Shown here: one piece after another, positions 5 to 58,058 of the stretch | How the letters are laid out: every line of letters begins with the position of its first letter | Position numbering within the stretch: the stretch's first letter is position 1 | Source of the DNA: a virus | Direction: 5' to 3' (one strand) | Length of the DNA stretch: 64,000 nucleotides | IMG/VR virus record: IMGVR_UViG_3300022188_000229 | Coordinates: 1 to 64,000 of that record | Translations under genes and position numbers: made by a program | The notes under the pieces: model-generated | What the model was told of the DNA's origin: nothing | Database searches by the model: none | The model's input: the letters and a program-made list of their open reading frames with translations, nothing else

Positions 5-787
5 ATGGATACTATAAATGTTTATAGTAGTACATTAAATAAAAGTTATAATGATTTAACTTATAGTGTGGTGGGTGATATGTTACATGAGGATCTAAGT
101 GCAAGTATTCATCCATACTCTAATAAGCATTATGGGTCATCGGTAACACAAAAATTTGTAACATTGAAATTAAAAAATAATATAGAGGATTTTCGTAAGT
201 ACGTTGAATTAACATTTAATTCTTATGCTAATCAATATTATTACTTTTCAGGTAATCAACGAGCATATAAAGCTTTTCGTGACGACCATTGGGTAGTCAG
301 AGTAGAAGGCCACCAATTGTTACCGATAGGCGCAGGGTTTGAGAAGACAAAAGTAATGCGCAAATATATTTTTAATTTGAGACATTACGACACTATTGAT
401 GCAGCCATAATTGACATGATTGATAGAGTGACCCTGTTAAGGAATTCAGATTTGGAAGTAGCTATAACATCTATAGGTGGAGTATATAAAGATCTAAATG
501 TATGTGTGATGCCTAGCGATATAAATGGTATTTCTGCACGTAGAAAATATTATACCAACAGGACTCTGTCTGGATCTATTTTAGTGACTAGACCACAAGA
601 TGCTGATTTATTTGCCTATATCACCCCTACTGGTTTGGAGGCTGAAAGTAATCTTACTAGCGAAATTACAGGGATAGATTATGAGAATCCCACGGACGGT
701 ATCGTTGATTTTAATTTTGAGGGTAGTGGGGATATACAACCGCCATCAGATCAAATAGATTTTACATTTATATTTGGAGATAACTAA
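5..787 (+). CDS. hypothetical protein, probably virion-associated (true start may lie upstream of the window)
   Basis: 260-aa ORF translationally coupled (TAATG) to two tail/receptor-binding-like genes. Confidence 0.45.
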   Translation: MDTINVYSSTLNKSYNDLTYSVVGDMLHEDLSASIHPYSNKHYGSSVTQKFVTLKLKNNIEDFRKYVELTFNSYANQYYYFSGNQRAYKAFRDDHWVVRVEGHQLLPIGAGFEKTKVMRKYIFNLRHYDTIDAAIIDMIDRVTLLRNSDLEVAITSIGGVYKDLNVCVMPSDINGISARRKYYTNRTLSGSILVTRPQDADLFAYITPTGLEAESNLTSEITGIDYENPTDGIVDFNFEGSGDIQPPSDQIDFTFIFGDN

Positions 788-8672: not shown

Positions 8673-10102
8673 TGTCGACAGAATTAGTACCAGCCACACA
8701 TCAAAGAGATCTTTTTTATCGCCCAGGCGATGAGCGGACAGTACTATCATACTGTTTTAAAAGCGTGGATTATTTCTATGATTTGACATCCAAGTTGACT
8801 GAGCGAGACTTCTTATCTCCAGAGCATCAGTTATTGTACGCCATGTTTAGTGGTTTTATTAGTGAAGGTGTAACTACTTTAGATATGTCAATGGTTATAA
8901 ATCAAGCACAGAGTAATGGTATCATAGATTTGTTAGGCGGTGTAGGTTATATTCAATCAATTTGTAATATCCAAGCTTCCAAGGAGAACTTTGAGGTATA
9001 TGTAAACAATGTTCTTGAAGCCAGTACTAAATTTCAAACTCATGTCGCATTAACTCAACATTTAACTACCATAGAAGAGAACGCACAATCAGGCTTAAGT
9101 GGCTCAGAATTAATAAGTAAAGTAGAGGCTAATATGTTAGATATGTCATCTATTTCTTTACTTACTGAAGATCCTATTAAATTGGGGGATGGACTTGCTG
9201 AATACCTTGAAGAACGGCGGAATAAAAAGATATTTATGACTGGTTTGTCTACAGGATATCCAATTCTAGATAGGCAAATAGATGGGTTAATTCCTGGTAC
9301 ATTGATGGTCATAGCCGCCAGAAAGAAAATGGGTAAGAGTGCTTTTTTAACTAATGTAGCTTTATTTAATGCCTTTAAATCAGGTGTTTCGACGCTCTAT
9401 ATTGACACAGAGTTGACATACTCAGAGTGGCAGACTAGAGCTCTCTCTATATTATCAGGCGTCAAGGAGCGTGACATTAAGCATGGTGGTTATACAGACG
9501 AACAGATGAGAAAACTAGAGTGGGCAGCTAAGATTGTATCTAAGGGTAAAGTATTTCATAAATATATGCCTGGGTACAGTGTAGATAAAGTAGTCTCTCT
9601 TTGTAAAAAATATAAATTAAAAGAAGATATTGGCTTAATAGTTTTTGATTATCTTAAAGAACCTGATCTATCTACAACAGATGGCAGCCGTAAAGAGCAT
9701 CAGTTGTTAGGGGATATAACTACTAAATTAAAAGATTTGGCTGGAGTATTAGATCTTCCAGTACTAAGTGCTGTGCAATTAAATAGACAGAATGACATTG
9801 CGGATAGTGATAGAATAGCGAGATTTGGTGACATTATCTCTATTTGGGGTGTACGTACTGATGAAGAGAAAGAAAAATGTGGCCCAGAAGGTGGGTCGTA
9901 TAAACTAGTTATAAAAGATACTCGTAGAGGGGGCAGTACAGGTGGCGAAGGGATAGGTTATTGGTTTTTTAAAAATCGGCTTACCATTAGAGAGGTTAAT
10001 CCAGCTGATCAGTATTTTATACATCAGAGTGAAGAGGTCTCTAATATAGATGACCTAGACGATGATCTTTATATCCGAGAGGTGGAGGATGAGCTTGCCT
10101 AA
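8672..10102 (+). CDS. dnaB: replicative DNA helicase
   Basis: 'GLSTGYPILD', Walker A 'ARKKMGKS', 'IVFDYL', 'AVQLNR'. Confidence 0.95.
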   Translation: MSTELVPATHQRDLFYRPGDERTVLSYCFKSVDYFYDLTSKLTERDFLSPEHQLLYAMFSGFISEGVTTLDMSMVINQAQSNGIIDLLGGVGYIQSICNIQASKENFEVYVNNVLEASTKFQTHVALTQHLTTIEENAQSGLSGSELISKVEANMLDMSSISLLTEDPIKLGDGLAEYLEERRNKKIFMTGLSTGYPILDRQIDGLIPGTLMVIAARKKMGKSAFLTNVALFNAFKSGVSTLYIDTELTYSEWQTRALSILSGVKERDIKHGGYTDEQMRKLEWAAKIVSKGKVFHKYMPGYSVDKVVSLCKKYKLKEDIGLIVFDYLKEPDLSTTDGSRKEHQLLGDITTKLKDLAGVLDLPVLSAVQLNRQNDIADSDRIARFGDIISIWGVRTDEEKEKCGPEGGSYKLVIKDTRRGGSTGGEGIGYWFFKNRLTIREVNPADQYFIHQSEEVSNIDDLDDDLYIREVEDELA

Positions 10103-11141
10103 ACGAAACGAAGATGATTTTAGACTACGTGTAGACACAGTGAAGCAGTTAATAGACCCTGTATATCTAGCAGAAACTTTGGGATTCAAATTAACTAATG
10201 AAACCCCTAAAGAGTTTAGAGCTGCCTGTCTTATACATGGTGGAGATAATACTACTGCATTTAGAGTGAATAAAGACTTAAAAACTTGGGTCTGTTTCAC
10301 ACACAAATGTCATGATGAGTCAGGAAATGATATGTTTGGCCTTGTTATGGCTGTTAATAAATGTGGTTTTATGGAGGCTCTAGAGTATTTAGAAGAATTG
10401 ACTGGTAGTAAAACTATAAACAGAACTCAGTTAAATGCATTTAAAAGAAAACGTGAGCAACAAGAATTTGTTAGACAAAATAATTATGATAGTAATGAGA
10501 AACCTTCTATAGTTGATGCTACTAGGCTAAAATATTATAAACCTTTTAGATCCTCCTTATTTATAGAGGATGGTTTTTCATCAGAGACCTTAGATTACTT
10601 TGAAGTGGCTGGAGGTTACTCAGATAAAGAGGGTATAGTTAGAGATATAATTCCTATACATAATGATAAAGGATTATTGGTTGCTTATAGTCTTAGAGAT
10701 ATAAGACGTAATGCTGAGAATACGGATAAGAAATATAAATTAACATCGGGTTTTGATAAGAACATGGTGTTATATAATTTAAATAGAATTAAGGATATAG
10801 TAGCAGATACCCCACTTATTATGGTTGAAGGATTCAAAAGTGTTTGGAGATTATATGAGTTAGGTATTAAGAATGTAGTAGCTTGCATGGGTTCAGGTAT
10901 TACTACTGGGCAAGTAAATTTACTATGTACATATGCACATAAAGGTATCGTTTTCTTTTTTGATAACGATTACGCCGGCGCTTCAGCCATTGGGAGATCA
11001 TTTGATCTTGTTAAAGGAAAGATGAAGACATATGTAGAGATAATAACAGAAGTAGATGAAGATGGTGAAGGGCTAGACCCAGCCGATTTAACAGATGAAC
11101 AAATATTTTATTATTTGAATAATTATATAGAGGAGAAATAG
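10089..11141 (+). CDS. dnaG: DNA primase (CHC2 zinc finger + TOPRIM)
   Basis: 'CLIHGGDN...WVCFTHKC', 'MVEGFKSV', 'FFDNDYAG', 'DPAD'; start placed at ATG 10089 behind ggagg. Confidence 0.92.
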   Translation: MSLPKRNEDDFRLRVDTVKQLIDPVYLAETLGFKLTNETPKEFRAACLIHGGDNTTAFRVNKDLKTWVCFTHKCHDESGNDMFGLVMAVNKCGFMEALEYLEELTGSKTINRTQLNAFKRKREQQEFVRQNNYDSNEKPSIVDATRLKYYKPFRSSLFIEDGFSSETLDYFEVAGGYSDKEGIVRDIIPIHNDKGLLVAYSLRDIRRNAENTDKKYKLTSGFDKNMVLYNLNRIKDIVADTPLIMVEGFKSVWRLYELGIKNVVACMGSGITTGQVNLLCTYAHKGIVFFFDNDYAGASAIGRSFDLVKGKMKTYVEIITEVDEDGEGLDPADLTDEQIFYYLNNYIEEK

Positions 11142-12836: not shown

Positions 12837-14071
12837 CTAAAAAAATAATTAAACTTAGCGCTACTAGAATAGGTTCTTACTTAAGATGTAAACGTAAGTA
12901 CTGGTTCAATTATGTAGAGCACATGCCCAAACTATCTAATCCGGCGTTTAAACTAGGATTGGCTTGTCATGAGTCTCTAGAGATAGCCGGTAAGATTTGG
13001 ATGGAAGAAGGCAGGCTGAGTAAGGCCGCCTATACAAAAATTTTCGCACACTATGATAAGATTTCTGTGAGAGAAGGTATTGAGGCGATGGAGGTACATG
13101 TTCAGGGAAAAGTGCTAGTAAAAAATAGACTAGATAACTTTGCACTAGGTACTAAAATCATCAGCCTTGAAGAAAAGTTTGGATTCGGCAAGGGGACTAA
13201 AGATATATCTACTACACTGGGCGTACCTCTAATTGGTGCAATGGATAAAGTAGTAGAGCTTGATCCAGACACTATAGTAGTGGTGGATTATAAAACTTCT
13301 AAAACTGCACCTACTTATGATCAATTGAAAGACGATTTACAGCTTTCTTTATATGATCTTGTAGCAGGTATTTTGTTTCCTCAGTATTCTAGAGTGATAC
13401 TTTGTTTAGATATGTTGAAATCAGAGCCGGTATATACTTATAGAACACCTTTTCAGCGAGAAGAATTTAATAGTTACTTATCAGTAATTCATGAAGAAAT
13501 GTCAGCACTTGTAGAGAAGGACGCTTATGCGTCATTGAATGTATTTTGTCCTTGGTGTGATTTTAAAGACTACTGCAAGGAATATAAGAAAGCAAGTTCG
13601 CAGACTAAATATGAATTTTTACCAGTATCCAAGATGACAGATGCTGATTTAATAGAAGAACATGAAAGAGTTAAAGGCGTGGCCAAGATACTTGACATGA
13701 GAAAACGTGATTTGGCAATGATTCTAATGGAGAAAATTAAAATTGCTGGTACTGATTTGAAGGGCGGGGATAATCAGATGTATATAAGACAGAGTGCCAG
13801 AACTAACTATGATGCCAAGGGTTTACATAAATTGATTCCACCCGATGAGTTCGCTACTATGGTATCATTGAATAAAAAAGCAGTAGATGCTTATTGTTCT
13901 AAACATCCTAAATTAAAGAAAGAAATTGAGAAGAATGCTACCACTAACTATACTTCTCCATTCTTGGCAGTTAAAAAAATTAAAGAACCAAAACCAGTAA
14001 AGAAAAAAGGAGCTACTAAAACTAATGGCAAAAAGAAAACTAAGCAAACAAGTAAAGCAAAAAAAGATTAA
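12833..14071 (+). CDS. PD-(D/E)XK exonuclease, RecB/Cas4-like
   Basis: 'LSATRIGSYLRCKRKY', 'GLACH', 'GAMDKV', 'VVDYKTS', 'QLSLY', 'CPWCDFKDYC'. Confidence 0.88.
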   Translation: MTKKIIKLSATRIGSYLRCKRKYWFNYVEHMPKLSNPAFKLGLACHESLEIAGKIWMEEGRLSKAAYTKIFAHYDKISVREGIEAMEVHVQGKVLVKNRLDNFALGTKIISLEEKFGFGKGTKDISTTLGVPLIGAMDKVVELDPDTIVVVDYKTSKTAPTYDQLKDDLQLSLYDLVAGILFPQYSRVILCLDMLKSEPVYTYRTPFQREEFNSYLSVIHEEMSALVEKDAYASLNVFCPWCDFKDYCKEYKKASSQTKYEFLPVSKMTDADLIEEHERVKGVAKILDMRKRDLAMILMEKIKIAGTDLKGGDNQMYIRQSARTNYDAKGLHKLIPPDEFATMVSLNKKAVDAYCSKHPKLKKEIEKNATTNYTSPFLAVKKIKEPKPVKKKGATKTNGKKKTKQTSKAKKD

Positions 14072-15332
14072 AGTATTAGCGTACTGCGACTCTCCAACCT
14101 GTGCAACAGGCTTTGGAACGGTGGCAAGGAATATTTTTGAGGCCCTACATAAAACAGGTCGGTATGAAATTGATATTCTAGGTATTAATTATTGGGGCGA
14201 CCCACACGGTTTACCTTACAGAATATGGCCAACAGGAATTAATGGAGATAAAGATCCTTATGGACGCAGAAAAGTGGCTGGTATGATACCACAGATGCAG
14301 TATGATATATTGTTTCTGTTACAGGACTCGTTTATATTGGATTTCATGCCTGCGCTATTTTCAAAATTAAAATCATCAGGCAAAGACTTCAAATCCATTT
14401 GTTATTTTCCTATAGATGGAAAACCTAAAGCGCAATGGATAGATAATGTTAATAACGCTGATGAGGTAGTAGCTTATTCACAGTTCGGGGCAGACGCAGC
14501 TAAGGCCGCTCAACCTGAGTGTAAAGATCTTCATATTATACCTCATGGAGCTAACGTCAATGATTTTAGACCCCTACCTGAGGGAGAAGTTAAAGCTTTT
14601 AGGAAACAATATTTTGGTAAGCATGCGGATAGTTTCATTGTCACTAATTTAAATAGAAATCAGCATAGGAAAGATATCCCACGGACTATTGCAGCGTTTA
14701 AAAAGTTTAGAGAGTCGGTTCCTGAATCGGTACTTTATTTACACATGGCTCCTAAAGATCAGGGTTGGGATTTGCCCGAAGTATGTAAAGCCTATGGGTT
14801 TAATATAGCTGAGGATGTAATATTCCCGGAGAACTTTGGCCCCAATCAAGGCTACCCGAGAGAAGTGGTAAATATGATCTATAATGCATCTGATTTGGTA
14901 GTAAGTACTACCCTTGGAGAAGGTTGGGGGTTGTCTTGGGTTGAAGCTATGGCAACTAGAACTCCTGTGCTTATGCCTAATAACACAGCAATAACTGAAA
15001 ATATTAGCGAAGATAGAGGCTATTTATGTAACAGTGGTACTAGTATAGGGCTAACAACTATATTGGCGAATGATAATGAAGTCATTAGACCTTTGGTCGA
15101 CGTAGAAGACATGGCTGAGAAGATGGTGCACATTTATAATAACTATGAAGAGGCTTTGGAGAAAGCAGATAAGGCATATAATTGGGTACATGAAAATTTA
15201 AATTGGCAAGGTAATGTTGGAAAGCAATGGGTTGACTTGTTTGATAAGGTATACGCTGACATGATTGAAGAGAAAATTAGTAGCCCCGATCATGATGCAA
15301 TAGGAAAAATGATTAAGGCTGAGACATTTTAG
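14025..15332 (+). CDS. glycosyltransferase, GT-B/GT4 family
   Basis: 'DSPTCATGFG', 'NRNQHRKD', 'GEGWGLSWVEAMA'. Confidence 0.92.
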   Translation: MAKRKLSKQVKQKKIKVLAYCDSPTCATGFGTVARNIFEALHKTGRYEIDILGINYWGDPHGLPYRIWPTGINGDKDPYGRRKVAGMIPQMQYDILFLLQDSFILDFMPALFSKLKSSGKDFKSICYFPIDGKPKAQWIDNVNNADEVVAYSQFGADAAKAAQPECKDLHIIPHGANVNDFRPLPEGEVKAFRKQYFGKHADSFIVTNLNRNQHRKDIPRTIAAFKKFRESVPESVLYLHMAPKDQGWDLPEVCKAYGFNIAEDVIFPENFGPNQGYPREVVNMIYNASDLVVSTTLGEGWGLSWVEAMATRTPVLMPNNTAITENISEDRGYLCNSGTSIGLTTILANDNEVIRPLVDVEDMAEKMVHIYNNYEEALEKADKAYNWVHENLNWQGNVGKQWVDLFDKVYADMIEEKISSPDHDAIGKMIKAETF

Positions 15333-15333
15333 C

Positions 15334-15361
15334 TTGACAAATAAAAACTAATGTTTATATT
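15334..15361 (+). promoter_or_regulatory. sigma70-type promoter immediately upstream of the hairpin/cassette array
   Basis: TTGACA-N16-TATATT. Confidence 0.8.
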
Positions 15362-15376
15362 ATATATATGTTAGGA

Positions 15377-15427
15377 AAATAACGCCACAGTTCACCGGCT
15401 TTGTCCGGTGTAACTGATTGGTTATTA
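15377..15427. repeat. attC-like hairpin repeat 1
   Basis: AAATAAC GCCA CAGTT CACCGG CTTTGT CCGGTG T AACTG ATTG GTTATTA: complementary TAAC/GTTA ends, unpaired spacer, stem with one bulged base. Confidence 0.75.
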
Positions 15428-15440
15428 AAAAGGAGGTATT

Positions 15441-15728
15441 ATGGAACAAAAACTTTTCCCATTTGAATGTAAATGTAGTGTTAAATTACGTAAGGCTGGT
15501 CTTTTTGAACTAAACATAAAAGGACTACCACATCCTACTGATCCAGAAGGAACGCATAGTATGATGACTACGGGTAGAACATTAGGCGAGGCTTTTTTTA
15601 ATATGGGTCATCACTTGACATTATCCTTTGAAGAACTGGCTCCTGGCCTTTTAGATTGGGCAGTTTGTGATGAACCTCGTCCTGAGCTAATTGAAAAGCT
15701 TCGTTTTCCGAATTGGCTTCAATTTTAA
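15441..15728 (+). CDS. cassette 1 plus-strand hypothetical protein
   Basis: Strong RBS aaggaggt directly after hairpin 1; 95 aa. Confidence 0.7.
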   Translation: MEQKLFPFECKCSVKLRKAGLFELNIKGLPHPTDPEGTHSMMTTGRTLGEAFFNMGHHLTLSFEELAPGLLDWAVCDEPRPELIEKLRFPNWLQF

Positions 15729-15783
15729 TAATATATTCAGGATGATTTTGATATTTTAAAGTAATTGTATATTTTTTGATCAT
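15598..15783 (-). CDS. cassette 1 minus-strand hypothetical protein
   Basis: RBS aggaga; leader identical over 18 nt to the leader of gene 58059; starts just inside hairpin 2. Confidence 0.55.
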   Translation of the reverse strand: MIKKYTITLKYQNHPEYIIKIEANSENEAFQLAQDEVHHKLPNLKGQEPVLQRIMSSDDPY

Positions 15784-15808
15784 TTAGGTTCTCCTATCTG
15801 ATTAAAAT

Positions 15809-15859
15809 TAATAATACCACAGTTCACCGGCTTTGTCCGGTGTAACTGATTGGTTATTT
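15809..15859. repeat. attC-like hairpin repeat 2
   Basis: Core identical to repeat 1 (CCACAGTTCACCGGCTTTGTCCGGTGTAACTGATTGGTTATT); left end TAATAATA instead of AAATAACG. Confidence 0.75.
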
Positions 15860-16000
15860 GGGTTTAGGATTTAAGTTGAGGGGTTTTGTATCTGTTTTAT
15901 GAAGTTCAAACGAACCGCAAAGAGGACAACGTTTCGTTTCAGTACATTCAAAAATGTGTTTACATTTTAAACAGGCATAAACTTTGTTTTTATTTTTAAT
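15854..16000 (-). CDS. cassette 2 minus-strand zinc-ribbon protein (48 aa, ATT start or decayed start; not in the ORF track)
   Basis: IKNKNKVYACLKCKHIFECTETKRCPLCGSFELHKTDTKPLNLNPKPK; GAGG 8 nt upstream of ATT; stop TAA lies inside the end of hairpin 2. Confidence 0.5.
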   Translation of the reverse strand: MKNKNKVYACLKCKHIFECTETKRCPLCGSFELHKTDTKPLNLNPKPK

Positions 16001-16027
16001 TTTATTGTCCTCATTAAGGTGATTACT

Positions 16028-16270
16028 ATGTACGAAGATATTATAGCACGATATAAAAAGGCGGGTATAGAAATTCCTAAAGAATTTTATGATGCTAATG
16101 TAATAGAAATGCTTGGTTCAGAAAATACTTTCATGTGGGAAAATAGAAAGTATAGGTTTCTTGCTTGTAATTTTGGACCAACAATAACAATGAAATGTGT
16201 TGATGATGATAGTAGAATAAGTTTTAATATTATATCAGAACTTAAAGACGAATTAATTAAAATTAATTAA
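16028..16270 (+). CDS. cassette 2 plus-strand hypothetical protein
   Basis: RBS taaggtga before ATG 16028; stop codon abuts hairpin 3. Confidence 0.65.
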   Translation: MYEDIIARYKKAGIEIPKEFYDANVIEMLGSENTFMWENRKYRFLACNFGPTITMKCVDDDSRISFNIISELKDELIKIN

Positions 16271-16319
16271 AAATAACGCCACAGTTCAGCGGTTTATCCG
16301 CTGTAACTTGTGGTTATGG
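16271..16319. repeat. attC-like hairpin repeat 3
   Basis: AAATAACGCCACAGTTCAGCGGTTTATCCGCTGTAACTTGTGGTTATGG; compensatory stem change CACCGG/CCGGTG to CAGCGG/CCGCTG. Confidence 0.75.
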
Positions 16320-16331
16320 AGGAAGAACAGC

Positions 16332-16928
16332 ATGATTGAAGTGAATAAACTACATGAAAACCAAGGTAATTTTTTGGCGGCTTTAGTTGGTATGGGGTTA
16401 GCTTTTGATAAGACAGTTAAAGGGTTAGATAACGGAACTGATATTTTCTTTAGTGCTGATGGCACATATAATGATTTGTATTTTAAGATGTTAGATAGAG
16501 CTAAAAGGATGGCATTTAAGGGGATGGGCCATAATAAATTCCTTAGAGCGATACATGTAGATCTCATTGTGAAGGCTCCTTGTGATTGGTGGCAACAACA
16601 GGCCACGTATACTACTATCTCTGCGGTGCAGTCAACATCCACTATGCACATGTTGAAGAAATCAGGCTTTGATAATGGGGTAGATCCTTTAATGGATGAA
16701 GTTATTTTAAATAGATACAATGAACTACTTAAAGAGACTGATGACCTAATTAAATTGAAACGTAATCTACCAGCTGGTTATATGTATATAAGAACTATCC
16801 ACTTAAACTACATGAATTTACAGGCTATGGTTAATCAGCGAATTAATCACAAAGAACCGGAATGGCCAGAGTTTTGTGAGCAAGTACTAGCACAGATAAA
16901 CCATCCATATTTAGTGATGAAGGGGTAA
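16332..16928 (+). CDS. ThyX-like (flavin-dependent thymidylate synthase-related) protein
   Basis: 'HNKFLRAIHV...AP..WW.Q..TY...STSTMH', 'NLPAGY...NY..L.....QR..H...EW..FC'; start placed at ATG behind ggagg. Confidence 0.65.
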   Translation: MIEVNKLHENQGNFLAALVGMGLAFDKTVKGLDNGTDIFFSADGTYNDLYFKMLDRAKRMAFKGMGHNKFLRAIHVDLIVKAPCDWWQQQATYTTISAVQSTSTMHMLKKSGFDNGVDPLMDEVILNRYNELLKETDDLIKLKRNLPAGYMYIRTIHLNYMNLQAMVNQRINHKEPEWPEFCEQVLAQINHPYLVMKG

Positions 16929-16931
16929 CAG

Positions 16932-17105
16932 ATGAAGACAGTGAGGATACACCTACTATCCACTAGTAATGAGATAACATATACTAACATAATAAATAGT
17001 TATATTAAATCTAATATGTATTGTGTTTTGTTTGAAAAAGATGATGGAATGGTAGTACATAAATACCCATTCTCTAATATTTATAGAGTAGAAGAAGACT
17101 ATTAG
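16932..17105 (+). CDS. small hypothetical protein (57 aa, not in the ORF track)
   Basis: RBS agggg; ORF fills the gap exactly. Confidence 0.55.
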   Translation: MKTVRIHLLSTSNEITYTNIINSYIKSNMYCVLFEKDDGMVVHKYPFSNIYRVEEDY

Positions 17106-17113
17106 GAGGTTAC

Positions 17114-18235
17114 ATGGAGATAAAAGGAATTAAATATACAGGCCCGATTTTTGATAACTCAGGGTATGCTAAGGCATGTAGAGGTAATATACTTGCTTTG
17201 CATCATGCAGGGGTGCCTATTACTTTAAACCCCATAACATTCGAACAGGCGCATCCAAATTTAGGTGAAAATGCTGAGCTTTTAAAAAGTTTAGTAAATA
17301 AATCTGTAGATTATAACGTTAATTTAATGCATACTACACCAGAGTTCTGGTCTAAGCATAAAGAATCCACATCATGTAATGTTGGTTATACTATTTGGGA
17401 GACTACTAAGCTACACAAAGATTGGCCCGGGTACATAAATTCCAACGTTGAGAAAGTATTGGTAGGGTGTGAGTGGAACAAAGGCATCTTTAAAGATAGT
17501 GGTGTAACTGTTCCTATTGGGGTGGTTCCCCATGGCACTAGTGCGAAGGAATTTGATAACGTAACCCCCTTCCAAATTGCTGGTGTTAAAGACACCGACT
17601 TTGTGTTCTATAGTATTTTTCAGTGGACAGAGCGTAAGTGCCCCTTGGCTTTGTTAAAGGCTTATTACCATGCTTTTCAGAATAATGAAGATGTAGTACT
17701 GGTCTTGAAAGCTTACGGTAATGACTACAGTACAAAACAAAAAGAGTCCGTAGTCAATGCTATTAAATATTTGAAATATAATATGCCTATGCCGCACTTT
17801 CCTAAGATAGTTCTTATTGGGGATATGATATCTGAGGACGAGATGGCCTCTATTCACGCAAGAGGGGATTGTTATGCTTCTTTAGATAGAGGTGAAGGCT
17901 TCGGACTTAGCCCGTTTACTGCTGGAGCAGCCGGAAACCCTATTATAGTTACAGGTTTTGGAGGATCAACTGAGTATGCTAAAGAAGATAATAGTTATTT
18001 GGTGGATTATCAATTAACACCTGTCTACGGAATGCCGTGGAGTCCCTGGTATGATGGTACTCAGTTATGGGCCGAACCTAATGTCGTAGATGGTAGTAAT
18101 AAAATGAGATATGTATATGCAAATAGAGAAGAAGCAAAGGTTAAAGGATTAAAACTACAGGATAGTATAACTAAGAACTTTTCTTGGGAAGCTATAGCTG
18201 ATAGAATTATTACTGAGATAAGGGAGATCAATTAA
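17114..18235 (+). CDS. glycosyltransferase, GT-B/GT4 family
   Basis: 'SGYA', 'YTIWET', 'ERK', 'RGEGFGL'. Confidence 0.9.
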   Translation: MEIKGIKYTGPIFDNSGYAKACRGNILALHHAGVPITLNPITFEQAHPNLGENAELLKSLVNKSVDYNVNLMHTTPEFWSKHKESTSCNVGYTIWETTKLHKDWPGYINSNVEKVLVGCEWNKGIFKDSGVTVPIGVVPHGTSAKEFDNVTPFQIAGVKDTDFVFYSIFQWTERKCPLALLKAYYHAFQNNEDVVLVLKAYGNDYSTKQKESVVNAIKYLKYNMPMPHFPKIVLIGDMISEDEMASIHARGDCYASLDRGEGFGLSPFTAGAAGNPIIVTGFGGSTEYAKEDNSYLVDYQLTPVYGMPWSPWYDGTQLWAEPNVVDGSNKMRYVYANREEAKVKGLKLQDSITKNFSWEAIADRIITEIREIN

Positions 18236-57622: not shown

Positions 57623-58012
57623 ATGATAGACTTTGAGAGTGCTTTGTATAGGGTAGTTTTTGATATAAGTAATAGTGCTCAAAAAGTAGTATGGGAGTCT
57701 GAATGGGGTCTACAGTTGGTAGACCCCATCAAACCTAGAAGTAAAAAATGGATTTATTTAATAGAGACCAACGAGTTACACCGTATAAAGATCGGAGTAA
57801 CTCGCTTCTCTAAATCTAGGTCAAGCTCTGTTGGAAACACTGTTGCTGATATAAGTGTGTTTAAACTAATACTACTTAATGAGAATTTAATTTCTGAAGA
57901 TGATCTACATTATTTGTTTAAAAAATATAATTATAAAGGGGAATTTCATTATAAAGAATGGCCATTAGAGTATTTTATTGATACTTTAAATAAAAAGTTC
58001 TTGACAAACTAA
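57623..58012 (+). CDS. GIY-YIG/T5orf172-like nuclease
   Basis: 'IYLIE.....IKIGVT', 'E..LH..F', 'GEF'. Confidence 0.6.
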   Translation: MIDFESALYRVVFDISNSAQKVVWESEWGLQLVDPIKPRSKKWIYLIETNELHRIKIGVTRFSKSRSSSVGNTVADISVFKLILLNENLISEDDLHYLFKKYNYKGEFHYKEWPLEYFIDTLNKKFLTN

Positions 58013-58028: not shown

Positions 58029-58058
58029 ATGTAAACAATTTAATCAGATAGGAGAATT

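What the first reader, a model, noticed from the sequence alone, without database searches (positions are those of the whole stretch)
15334..16319. Integron-like gene-cassette array (three attC-like hairpins) behind a phage promoter, with no integrase in the window
Seen: three 49-51 bp repeats (15377-15427, 15809-15859, 16271-16319) separated by 381 and 411 bp of unrelated coding DNA. Each folds into an imperfect hairpin with complementary TAAC/GTTA ends, an inner stem and one bulged base; repeat 1 also has a fully mismatched spacer. Read on the minus strand, repeat 1 is TAATAAC-N6-GTTACACC...GGTGAAC-N6-GTTATTT, i.e. the R''/L''(extra base at position 4)/L'/R' layout of integron attC sites. 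Repeat 3 shows a compensatory change (CACCGG/CCGGTG to CAGCGG/CCGCTG), so structure is conserved over sequence. The two ends of each cassette are mutually complementary (GTTATTT...AAATAAC exactly for cassette 2; GTTATTA...TAATAAT with one mismatch for cassette 1), as expected if each once existed as a circle. The array starts 15 bp after a TTGACA-N16-TATATT promoter. Established: integron cassettes are promoterless ORF+attC units recombined as folded ssDNA by IntI. Inference: the phage captures or shuffles small genes at an expression hotspot using a host or distant phage-encoded recombinase. The sites are a little shorter than classical attC, so this may be a distinct phage family.
Basis: partly seen in the sequence, partly recalled or inferred. 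Interest (0 to 1): 0.92.

Follow-up and report, generated by a model that had tools for sequence, protein, structure and literature searches.

The report
Hairpin-bounded gene cassettes in phage
Three near-identical folded repeats cut part of a large hydrothermal-vent phage genome into small swappable gene units, much as integron recombination sites do in bacteria; related phages carry different sets of units, no recombinase was found, and arrays of this kind in phages were first described in 2023.

Summary
Three ~50-nt imperfect hairpins (15377-15427, 15809-15859, 16271-16319) are the only copies in the 92.9-kb record. Fifteen distinct copies from six related uncultured phages show strong covariation, and wobble pairs show that the + strand folds.

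The layout matches the bottom strand of integron attC sites in detail:
- TAAC, a 5-6 nt spacer, GTT, then a 6-bp stem.
- A loop, a 6-bp stem, one bulged pyrimidine, AAC, a spacer, then GTTA.
- Two variants carry two bulges exactly 6 bp apart.

A covariance model built from published attC bottom strands ranks hp1 and hp3 first and second in the 64-kb window, though E-values are weak. Related phages have 0, 1, 3 or 4-5 hairpins at this locus, with different small gene units between them, and every unit holds a minus-strand gene. No tyrosine recombinase was found in seven phage records.

Best reading (0.45): an integrase-less attC-type cassette array, like the phage CALINs of Qi et al. 2023. Main rival (0.35): a PeSL-like mRNA hairpin plus ribosome-binding-site module shuffled by homologous recombination. 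This scan noted similar arrays before in other phage genomes. Novelty: a new member of a known kind.

The parts
15334..15363 (+). Sigma70-type promoter (TTGACA, 16 or 18 nt, TATATT or TATTAT) heading the array. It is conserved with the first hairpin in relatives.
   Evidence: 11 of 12 matches; the only strong site in 14000-18000. Alignment A7, shows the promoter conserved in L077, G005, L005 and L007.
15377..15427 (+). Hairpin 1, an attC-like junction. Layout: AATAAC, GCCACA, GTT plus 6 bp, loop CTTTGT, 6 bp, bulged T, AAC, TGATTG, GTTATT.
   Evidence: Rank 1 hit of attC model R3 in the window (17.1 bits). The ATG of the next gene lies 14 nt after it.
15441..15728 (+). orf95, a conserved small protein of unknown function with a strong ribosome-binding site.
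   Evidence: Homologues at 58-67% identity over the full length. No Pfam or PHROG match.
15598..15783 (-). orf61, a minus-strand gene with its own ribosome-binding site. Its 3' part overlaps the tail of orf95.
   Evidence: In relative L077 it is the C-terminal part of a 107-aa minus-strand ORF (P0006).
15784..15808 (-). Leader and ribosome-binding site of orf61. Positions 15789-15806 are an exact inverted copy of the leader at 58039-58056.
   Evidence: 18 of 18 identical, E 0.001; one search shows the 58-kb leader behind a TTGACA promoter.
15809..15859 (+). Hairpin 2, an attC-like junction that reads AAT in place of AAC. It is absent from relative L077, where the flanking minus-strand ORFs are fused.
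   Evidence: R3 rank 6 (11.5 bits).
15854..16000 (-). Zinc-ribbon ORF (CxxC...CxxC) on the minus strand. ATT stands where the relative has ATG, and the stop codon lies inside the 3' arm of hairpin 2.
   Evidence: It matches the N-terminal part of P0006, which gives weak zinc-ribbon Pfam hits.
16028..16270 (+). orf80, a small + strand gene that ends 1 nt before hairpin 3.
   Evidence: phrog_10747, E 7e-4. By eye it is about 75% identical to a homologue in L077.
16271..16319 (+). Hairpin 3, an attC-like junction with upper stem CAGCGG/CCGCTG, directly before the ribosome-binding site of the ThyX-like gene.
   Evidence: R3 rank 2 (15.1 bits). ATG 14 nt after it.
16332..16928 (+). ThyX-like gene (phrog_6721), the conserved right-hand border of the array.
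   Evidence: phrog_6721, E 2.6e-29. The G005 homologue matches Pfam Thy1 (E 8e-6), and L011 has a true ThyX at this position.

Best explanation
The three repeats are attC-type folded junctions. The stretch from the promoter to the ThyX-like gene is an integrase-less gene-cassette array, a phage CALIN in the sense of Qi et al. 2023.

Shown here:
- The hairpin is selected to fold in the + strand.
- That strand has the geometry of an attC bottom strand.
- All copies share one polarity.
- The units between hairpins differ among related phages.
- Every unit holds a minus-strand gene whose polarity matches the canonical order of ORF then attC.

Inferred, not shown: units are cut out and inserted as folded single strands at the AAC/GTT core. 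The enzyme would be an IntI- or Xer-type tyrosine recombinase supplied in trans, by the host or by a part of the phage genome not held here. Because the array lies inverted relative to the phage promoter, + strand genes in the units are read from that promoter. The hairpins therefore also sit in the mRNA, 14 nt before start codons, where they may have gained a second, RNA-level role.
For: 1. Structure. Fifteen distinct copies from the window, L077, L005, G005, L007, L010 and L016 give 94.5% paired cells. Eight pairs change on both sides, and 0 of 500 shuffles reach this.
2. Strand. There are 15 G.T wobble cells on the + strand and no A.C cells. The + strand folds better in 5 of 8 copies.
3. 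Geometry. The layout is TAAC, 5-6 nt, GTT, 6 bp, loop, 6 bp, a bulged pyrimidine in 14 of 15 copies, AAC, 5-6 nt, GTTA. This matches the attC bottom-strand definition in PMC5027507.
4. Variants not used to frame the idea also fit. The L016 copy has two bulged T 6 bp apart. A 120-130 nt long form in G005 and L005 has two bulges on the 3' arm exactly 6 bp apart; the G005 copy also has the ATAAC/GTTAT base and a 5/4 nt spacer, while the L005 copy lacks the 5' ATAAC.
5. Model R3 was built from six published attC bottom strands. It ranks hp1 and hp3 first and second and hp2 sixth in 128 kb searched, all on +. Relatives' copies score 12-23 bits.
6. The window's own model R2 picks TJE1_attC1 and attC2 as its top two hits, on the TJE1 bottom strand.
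7. Arrays differ among relatives: 0 copies (L012, L013), 1 (L007, L009, L014), 3 (window, L077) and 4-5 (L005, G005). Units are shared in different combinations.
8. For recently shared units the hairpin travels with the unit on its right, as expected for a cut at the 5' AAC of the + strand.
9. Every unit has a minus-strand gene. Nearly all other long ORFs in the 64 kb are on +.
10. Precedent: sites of 50-65 nt from virulent phages were recombined by IntI1 (PMC9892861).
Against: - No PF00589 tyrosine recombinase was found in seven phage records, about 885 kb in all, one of them 87% complete. No Y1 transposase or serine recombinase was found in the five records searched for them.
- The AAC triplet reads AAT in 3 of 15 copies.
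- The spacer is mostly paired in types B and C and fully paired in L007. The L007 copy also lacks the bulge and is not found by R3.
- Relative L027 has an unrelated hairpin at the same spot before the ThyX-like gene. This argues for an RNA-level need for some hairpin there.
- Eleven of 15 copies are followed directly by a + strand ribosome-binding site.
- The unit genes have few homologues, and a pattern-preselected sample of bacterial genomes held no family member. Exchange therefore looks confined to phages.
- Hairpin 2 is missing in L077, at a junction flanked by a 9-nt imperfect direct repeat. That is not a clean site-specific event.
- R3 E-values are weak (0.005 to 3). The curated IntegronFinder model could not be run.
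Confidence: 0.45

Rival explanations
1. PeSL-like regulatory module. The hairpin plus the ribosome-binding site is a cis-acting element of the + strand mRNA, serving as a processing, stabilising or translation-insulating hairpin. The same 50-60 nt is repeated at each junction. General or phage-encoded homologous recombination between copies then gains, loses and swaps the units, as shown for promoter-early stem-loops of T4-type phages. The attC-like geometry would be convergent.
For: - The folding strand is the mRNA-sense strand.
- Hairpins end 14 nt before start codons and abut a ribosome-binding site in 11 of 15 copies.
- The first copy lies about 9 nt into the transcript of the only strong promoter, and promoter plus hairpin is conserved as a module.
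- L027 has an unrelated hairpin at the same place.
- The single copy in L007 has lost the bulge and spacer but kept a strong stem.
- Copies within one genome are more alike than copies at matching positions in different phages. This indicates gene conversion or recent duplication.
- A PD-(D/E)XK exonuclease gene lies two genes upstream.
- PeSLs flank ORFans in hyperplastic regions and mediate indels and mini-circles (PMC2839356; PMC4122927).
Against: - It gives no reason for the conserved TAAC/GTTA base, the GTT/AAC box, the bulge or the exact 6-bp spacing. It also does not explain why the double-bulge and long-form variants keep the attC blueprint.
- It gives no reason for minus-strand genes in every unit.
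- Copies 2 and 3 have no promoter on the + strand.
- No hybrid hairpins with mismatched arms are seen, although crossovers inside the hairpin between types would make them.
- The stem-loops lack a U tract on the + strand, so they are not canonical terminators.
Confidence: 0.35
2. Purely an RNA processing or stabilising site, for example an RNase III-type intercistronic hairpin as in the early operon of phage T7. It would have no part in recombination; each unit simply arrived with or evolved its own copy.
For: - About 19-21 bp of interrupted helix, with an internal loop in type A copies.
- The order promoter, hairpin, gene, hairpin, gene.
- + strand wobble pairs.
- The T7 comparison rests on my own knowledge, not on a tool result.
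Against: - The family is confined to this one locus. G001 (238 kb) has one clear copy, and all G005 copies lie in the array.
- Mosaic borders between relatives coincide with hairpins, including a drop from about 97% to about 70% identity exactly at hairpin 2.
- No RNase III gene was found in the five phage records searched for it.
- Some hairpins are not followed by any + strand gene, for example G005 copy C and L077 copy III.
Confidence: 0.08
3. A small mobile palindromic element (MITE- or REP-like) that inserts on its own, splitting genes and duplicating a short target.
For: Hairpin 2 and its 26-nt leader are present in the window and absent in L077. The site is flanked by an imperfect 9-nt direct repeat (ATTTAGGTT and ATTTGGGTT), and in L077 the two flanking minus-strand ORFs form one 107-aa ORF.
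Against: - No transposase of the Y1, serine or tyrosine kinds was found.
- All copies are confined to one locus and share one polarity.
- The same pattern arises from deletion between short direct repeats around a palindrome.
- The junction is also a border between about 97% and about 70% identity. That fits recombination better than simple insertion.
Confidence: 0.05

Closest known systems
Phage-borne CALINs: clusters of attC sites lacking an integrase, in virulent phages such as Tetrasphaera phage TJE1 and Pseudoalteromonas phage PH101 (Qi et al. 2023, PMC9892861)
   Same: - Short folded sites with a TAAC/GTTA base, a GTT/AAC inner box, one bulged base and a 6-bp stem. TJE1_attC1 is about 50 nt with loop CTTTAGT; here the loop is CTTTGT.
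- No integrase in the phage.
- Small genes lie between the sites.
- Each model finds the other's sites as top hits, on the bottom strand.
- The glycosyltransferase next to this array has its best match among isolated phages in TJE1, at 40.6% identity. The TJE1 sites lie elsewhere in that genome.
   Different: - In TJE1 the genes and sites follow the canonical order, and the mRNA is top-strand sense. Here the phage promoter reads the bottom-like strand, and units carry genes on both strands.
- The bulged base is a pyrimidine, not G.
- Recombination by IntI1 was shown for the published sites and is untested here.
- Here several natural relatives show unit turnover at one locus.
Classical integrons (intI, attI, Pc, attC cassette arrays)
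   Same: An array of small gene units separated by imperfect hairpins with R and L boxes, extrahelical bases, a spacer and a variable terminal part. One strand is selected to fold.
   Different: - No intI or attI was found.
- The promoter faces the non-canonical way.
- Most sites are 47-52 nt, below the 57-141 nt range quoted in PMC5027507.
- AAC is lost in 3 of 15 sites.
- Units hold several genes.
PeSL (promoter-early stem-loop) mobile regulatory cassettes of T4-type phages (Arbiol et al. 2010, PMC2839356; Comeau et al. 2014, PMC4122927)
   Same: - A conserved promoter, stem-loop and ribosome-binding-site motif stands before ORFans in a hyperplastic region.
- Insertions, deletions and replacements between related phages are bounded by the motif.
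- No dedicated recombinase is present.
   Different: - PeSLs are defined by a promoter in every copy and by stem-loops that act as terminators, and about 50 are spread over the genome.
- Here only the first copy has a + strand promoter, and the family is confined to one locus.
- The hairpin has a fixed fine structure with covariation.
RNase III processing sites between early genes of phage T7 (own knowledge, not checked with a tool)
   Same: Similar repeated hairpins of about 50-60 nt with an internal loop lie between cistrons and after the early promoters.
   Different: No evidence of cleavage here. The T7 sites do not mark borders of variable gene content.

Membership tests
Integron attC site | Imperfect hairpin whose base is the R box, with 5'-AAC-3' on one arm and GTT on the other (consensus RYYYAAC / GTTRRRY) | tested here: inconclusive
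   AAC and GTT are present in 12 of 15 copies; three read AAT. The flanking consensus fits only in part (AAATAAC; GTTATTA or GTTATGG). Definition from PMC5027507.
Integron attC site | L box with extrahelical base(s) on the arm opposite the cleaved AAC of the folding strand; 6-bp stem between first and last extrahelical base | tested here: met
   A bulged pyrimidine lies just 5' of the inner AAC on the 3' arm in 14 of 15 copies, with exactly 6 bp to the loop. The L016 copy and the G005/L005 long form have two bulges 6 bp apart.
Integron attC site | Unpaired central spacer of 5-6 nt on each arm between the R and L boxes | tested here: inconclusive
   The DNA fold of type A copies shows a 4 x 4 internal loop. 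Types B and C pair 4 of 5 positions, and L007 pairs all.
Integron attC site | Length 57-141 nt, with the variation in the terminal structure | tested here: inconclusive
   Short form 47-52 nt, L016 copy about 60 nt, long form 120-130 nt. The published site TJE1_attC1 is also about 50 nt.
Integron attC site | One strand (the bottom strand) is the one selected to fold | tested here: met
   15 G.T wobble cells and no A.C cells on the + strand. By bulge position, that strand has the bottom-strand geometry.
Integron attC site | Recognised by an attC covariance model | tested here: inconclusive
   Only a home-made model (R3) from six published bottom strands could be run. Window ranks were 1, 2 and 6, at 17.1, 15.1 and 11.5 bits (E 0.13 to 3). 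Relatives scored up to 22.7 bits (E 0.005). The IntegronFinder and HattCI models were not available, and Rfam gave no match.
Integron attC site | Recombined by an integron integrase | not testable with these tools
   Needs an attC x attI assay such as that in PMC9892861.
Integron gene cassette | An ORF followed by its attC in the same polarity | tested here: met
   Read on the minus strand, all six units examined have an ORF pointing at the hairpin on their left. The stop of the zinc-ribbon ORF lies inside hairpin 2, and the G005 65-aa gene ends 8 nt from copy B. Most units also hold + strand genes.
Complete integron | intI tyrosine recombinase gene with attI and Pc next to the array | tested here: not met
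   No PF00589 match in G000-G006; controls were positive in 14 of 14 genomes.
CALIN (cluster of attC sites lacking an integrase) | Two or more attC sites close together with no integrase nearby | tested here: inconclusive
   Three sites lie within 1 kb and no integrase was found. Membership depends on accepting the sites as attC; see the rows above.
PeSL regulatory cassette | Sigma70-type early promoter in each copy, joined to a stem-loop and a ribosome-binding site | tested here: not met
   Only copy 1 has a strong + strand promoter. Minus-strand extended -10-like motifs in some copies are at chance level.
PeSL regulatory cassette | Insertions, deletions and replacements between related phages are bounded by the motif | tested here: met
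PeSL regulatory cassette | Mini-circles formed by exchange between neighbouring copies | tested here: inconclusive
   One 318-nt contig in run X4 joins 15816 back to 15385 across the 42-nt repeat. Depth is 4 and the competing branches are uncovered, so it may be an assembly artefact.

The most novel reading that the evidence does not exclude
These vent jumbo phages run a phage-restricted cassette-exchange system. The attC-like hairpins would be recombined during co-infection by an enzyme that is not a known integron integrase: an unrecognised phage protein, or a host Xer-type enzyme. The units would be built to be read from both strands, which would explain why each holds a minus-strand gene in an otherwise one-directional genome.
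Probability: 0.12. Interest if true: 0.85.

Novelty: new member of a known kind. Interest (0 to 1): 0.55.

Why it matters
Published phage CALINs were single genomes tested in an artificial assay. Here one locus can be compared across at least six natural relatives carrying 0 to 5 junction hairpins and different unit sets, so cassette turnover in phages can be seen directly. The sites keep the fine geometry that integron integrases read, yet no integrase is present and the array is inverted relative to phage transcription. This makes a concrete question testable: do phages use integron-type single-strand recombination, or have they converged on the same hairpin for RNA-level or homology-driven shuffling? 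The units hold unexplored small proteins, including zinc-ribbon, coiled-coil and tiny hydrophobic peptides. They sit next to a ThyX-like gene and glycosyltransferase genes, a cluster that may serve DNA modification.

Tried and rejected
- Rfam gave no family at gathering score for the window, and only chance-level hits at E up to 10 in 15300-16400.
- The isolated-phage collection gave no near or distant DNA match to 14000-18000.
- My first model, R1, had a mis-typed outer helix. It was used only to find copies by sequence and was replaced by R2.
- Weak hits were rejected. Window 57757-57815 (-) lies inside a 129-aa ORF. The R3 hit at 10737-10777 lies inside a 359-aa ORF and folds poorly.
- Peptide-pattern scans of viral contigs for orf95 and orf80, and a profile scan for the orf95 family, found nothing.
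The contigs of the orf95 homologues, one of 318 kb, could therefore not be read.
- Sequencing runs: no RNA holder was listed.
- The single contig that goes back 432 nt could be a circle or a tandem duplication. I judged it a likely assembly artefact.
It gave no family member by R2, and R3 found nothing in 12 loci from integron-rich genera. No host clue and no calibration came of it.
- A canonical intrinsic terminator on the + strand was rejected, because no U tract follows the stem.
- Frequent inversion of units through the palindromic junctions was rejected. All four units shared between phages have the same orientation.
- Autoregulation by the ThyX-like protein was rejected, because hairpins also precede unrelated genes.
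- The TJE1 sites are not next to its glycosyltransferase.
Full report
**1. The observation**

The window comes from a 92,895-base IMG/VR virus record, estimated 34% complete. Near-identical DNA is held only in hydrothermal-vent metagenomes.

Three direct repeats of 49-51 nt lie at 15377-15427, 15809-15859 and 16271-16319. Their core occurs exactly three times in the window and in the whole record. Each folds into an imperfect hairpin, significantly better than shuffles. The only strong sigma70-type site within 4 kb is at 15334-15363.

**2. Surroundings**

On the + strand the order is as follows:
- a PD-(D/E)XK exonuclease gene, then glycosyltransferase GT4a;
- the promoter, then hairpin 1 and orf95;
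- hairpin 2, then orf80;
- hairpin 3, then a ThyX-like gene (phrog_6721), a second GT4 and a methyltransferase.

Hairpins 1 and 3 each end 14 nt before the next ATG and abut its ribosome-binding site.

On the minus strand there are two further ORFs. orf61 (15783-15598) has its own ribosome-binding site. A zinc-ribbon ORF (16000-15854) has its stop codon inside hairpin 2. Long ORFs elsewhere in the 64 kb are almost all on +.

**3. Relatives**

Homologues of GT4a fetched 15 viral loci. A DNA pattern scan added G005, a 129-kb contig. A search with the minus-strand protein added L077, a 1.9-kb metagenome contig. The arrays are:

| Phage record | Array between the promoter (P) and the right-hand border |
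|---|---|
| L007, L009, L014 | P, one hairpin, ThyX-like gene |
| window | P, hp1, [orf95 / orf61(-)], hp2, [zinc ribbon(-) / orf80], hp3, ThyX-like gene |
| L077 | P, hpI, [coiled-coil unit], hpII, [orf95; zinc ribbon fused to orf61 as one 107-aa minus ORF; orf80], hpIII, [small hydrophobic peptide unit] |
| L005 | P, hp, [coiled-coil unit], degenerate hp, [65-aa Cys-rich(-) / 61-aa(+) / 46-aa membrane], hp, ThyX-like gene |
| G005 | P, hpA, [55-aa(+) / 66-aa(-)], hpB, [the same Cys-rich(-) / 64-aa(+) pair], hpC, [the same hydrophobic peptide unit], hpD, ThyX-like gene |
| L012, L013 | no hairpin and no ThyX-like gene |

Units therefore recur in different combinations, with hairpins at the borders.

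The family is confined to this locus. G001 (238 kb, 87% complete) has one clear copy, and all four G005 copies lie in the array.

**4. Structure and strand**

On 15 distinct copies, 94.5% of cells pair and eight pairs change on both sides. No shuffle or slid control comes near this. All 15 wobble cells are G.T on the + strand, and there is no A.C cell. The + strand is therefore the one selected to fold. The alignment was fitted by Infernal, which leans towards pairing, but the helices are unambiguous by eye.

**5. Comparison with attC**

Earlier notes of this scan on other phage genomes pointed to Qi et al. 2023 (PMC9892861). That paper reports 17 integrase-less attC clusters in phages and shows that sites from virulent phages are recombined by IntI1. 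Its supplement gives the bottom strands.

The + strand of the present hairpins has the same order of parts as those strands, and as the definition in PMC5027507. That order is R box with AAC on the 5' arm, a 5-6 nt spacer, GTT, a 6-bp stem, the terminal loop, a 6-bp stem, an extrahelical base on the 3' arm, AAC, a spacer and GTTA.

Three results that were not part of the original observation fit the same blueprint:
- The L016 copy has two bulged T exactly 6 bp apart.
- A 120-130 nt long form in G005 and L005 has two bulges 6 bp apart and a large terminal structure. The G005 copy also has the ATAAC/GTTAT base and a 5/4-nt spacer.
- Every unit has a minus-strand gene, which is the canonical cassette polarity relative to the sites. 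One of these genes shows a clear coding signature, with substitutions by codon position of 20, 14 and 32.

Model R3 was built from six published bottom strands. It ranks hp1 and hp3 first and second and hp2 sixth over both strands of the window. It scores relatives' copies at 12-23 bits. The window's own model finds the two tested TJE1 sites as its top hits, on their bottom strand. E-values are weak, so this is a ranked resemblance, not a curated-threshold test.

**6. What argues against an integron mechanism**

- No tyrosine recombinase was found in seven phage records. No Y1 transposase or serine recombinase was found in the five records searched for them.
- Three copies read AAT for AAC.
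- The spacer is paired in several copies. The lone L007 copy has become a near-perfect hairpin that R3 no longer finds.
- L027, whose ThyX-like gene is 78% identical, has an unrelated 11-bp hairpin at the same spot.
- The hairpins sit directly before + strand ribosome-binding sites.
- The unit genes have very few homologues. The pattern-preselected bacterial loci held no member of the hairpin family.
- Hairpin 2 with its leader is absent in L077. The site is flanked by an imperfect 9-nt direct repeat, and identity drops there from about 97% to about 70%.

These points fit a PeSL-like reading (PMC2839356, PMC4122927). In that reading a regulatory hairpin module in the mRNA also serves as portable homology.

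**7. Verdict**

What is shown:
- a locus-specific family of covarying hairpins that fold in the + strand;
- an attC bottom-strand geometry;
- borders of gene units that turn over among relatives;
- no recombinase in the DNA at hand.

What is inferred is the enzyme and the chemistry. I rate the readings as follows:
- attC-type recombination in trans: 0.45;
- PeSL-like RNA module with homologous recombination: 0.35;
- the remainder split between a pure RNA processing site and a mobile palindrome.

The two main readings are not exclusive. The finding is a new member of a known kind (phage CALIN). Its unusual features are inverted polarity, genes on both strands of the units, and visible natural turnover.

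Noticed in passing
window 16332-16928; L011:7417-8310; L010:7694-8518; L076:1585-2148: The slot between the two GT4 genes holds different pyrimidine-enzyme genes in different relatives. L011 has a true ThyX (Pfam Thy1, E 5.6e-65). L010 has a ThyA-like gene (PF00303, E 1.6e-10). G005 and the window have a short ThyX-like gene. Together with the flanking glycosyltransferases and a methyltransferase this suggests a DNA base-modification cluster.
   Followed up: partly
L005:9159-11459; L015:6001-8517; L016:5998-8454 and 8724-10295: In some relatives GT4a, GT4b and the ThyX-like gene are about twice as long. tblastn matches are split by inserts of about 1 kb inside one open frame. This looks like inteins or in-frame mobile insertions.
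   Followed up: no
window 15789-15806 and 58039-58056: The leader and ribosome-binding site of minus-strand orf61 is an exact 18-nt inverted copy of the leader behind a TTGACA promoter at 58 kb.
   Followed up: yes
L051:1270-1440 (G005) and L077:1-160: The unit after G005 copy C and L077 copy III encodes a 26-aa very hydrophobic minus-strand peptide (MIDFIVLLKLL...). It has a strong ribosome-binding site and is followed by a 16-bp terminator-like hairpin. This resembles type I toxins.
   Followed up: no
L005:7756-8137; L076:262-652: A conserved divergent gene pair: a 65-aa Cys-rich minus-strand gene and a 61-64-aa + strand gene. Their start codons overlap in the palindrome CATG, so there is no room for promoters between them.
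   Followed up: partly
L077:1090-1270 (its + strand): The minus-strand coiled-coil ORF of the first L077 unit has an in-frame TGA after about 21 codons. The frame stays open and coiled-coil-like after it (read by eye).
   Followed up: no
window 15811-15839 (-); L051:349-377 and 757-785 (-); L077 copy II: Copies that read AATAAT-ACC or ATTATAAC-ACC create TG-extended -10-like boxes on the minus strand, just upstream of minus-strand genes. Promoter-like sites overall are at chance frequency, so this is only a hint.
   Followed up: partly
L027:3940-3985: A relative with a 78%-identical ThyX-like gene has an unrelated perfect 11-bp hairpin (ATGACCGCAAG ... CTTGCGGTCAT) directly before that gene's ribosome-binding site.
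   Followed up: partly
window 15385-15816: One 318-nt contig of vent run X4 joins 15816 back to 15385 across the 42-nt repeat, which is circle-like or tandem-duplication-like. Depth is only 4.
   Followed up: partly
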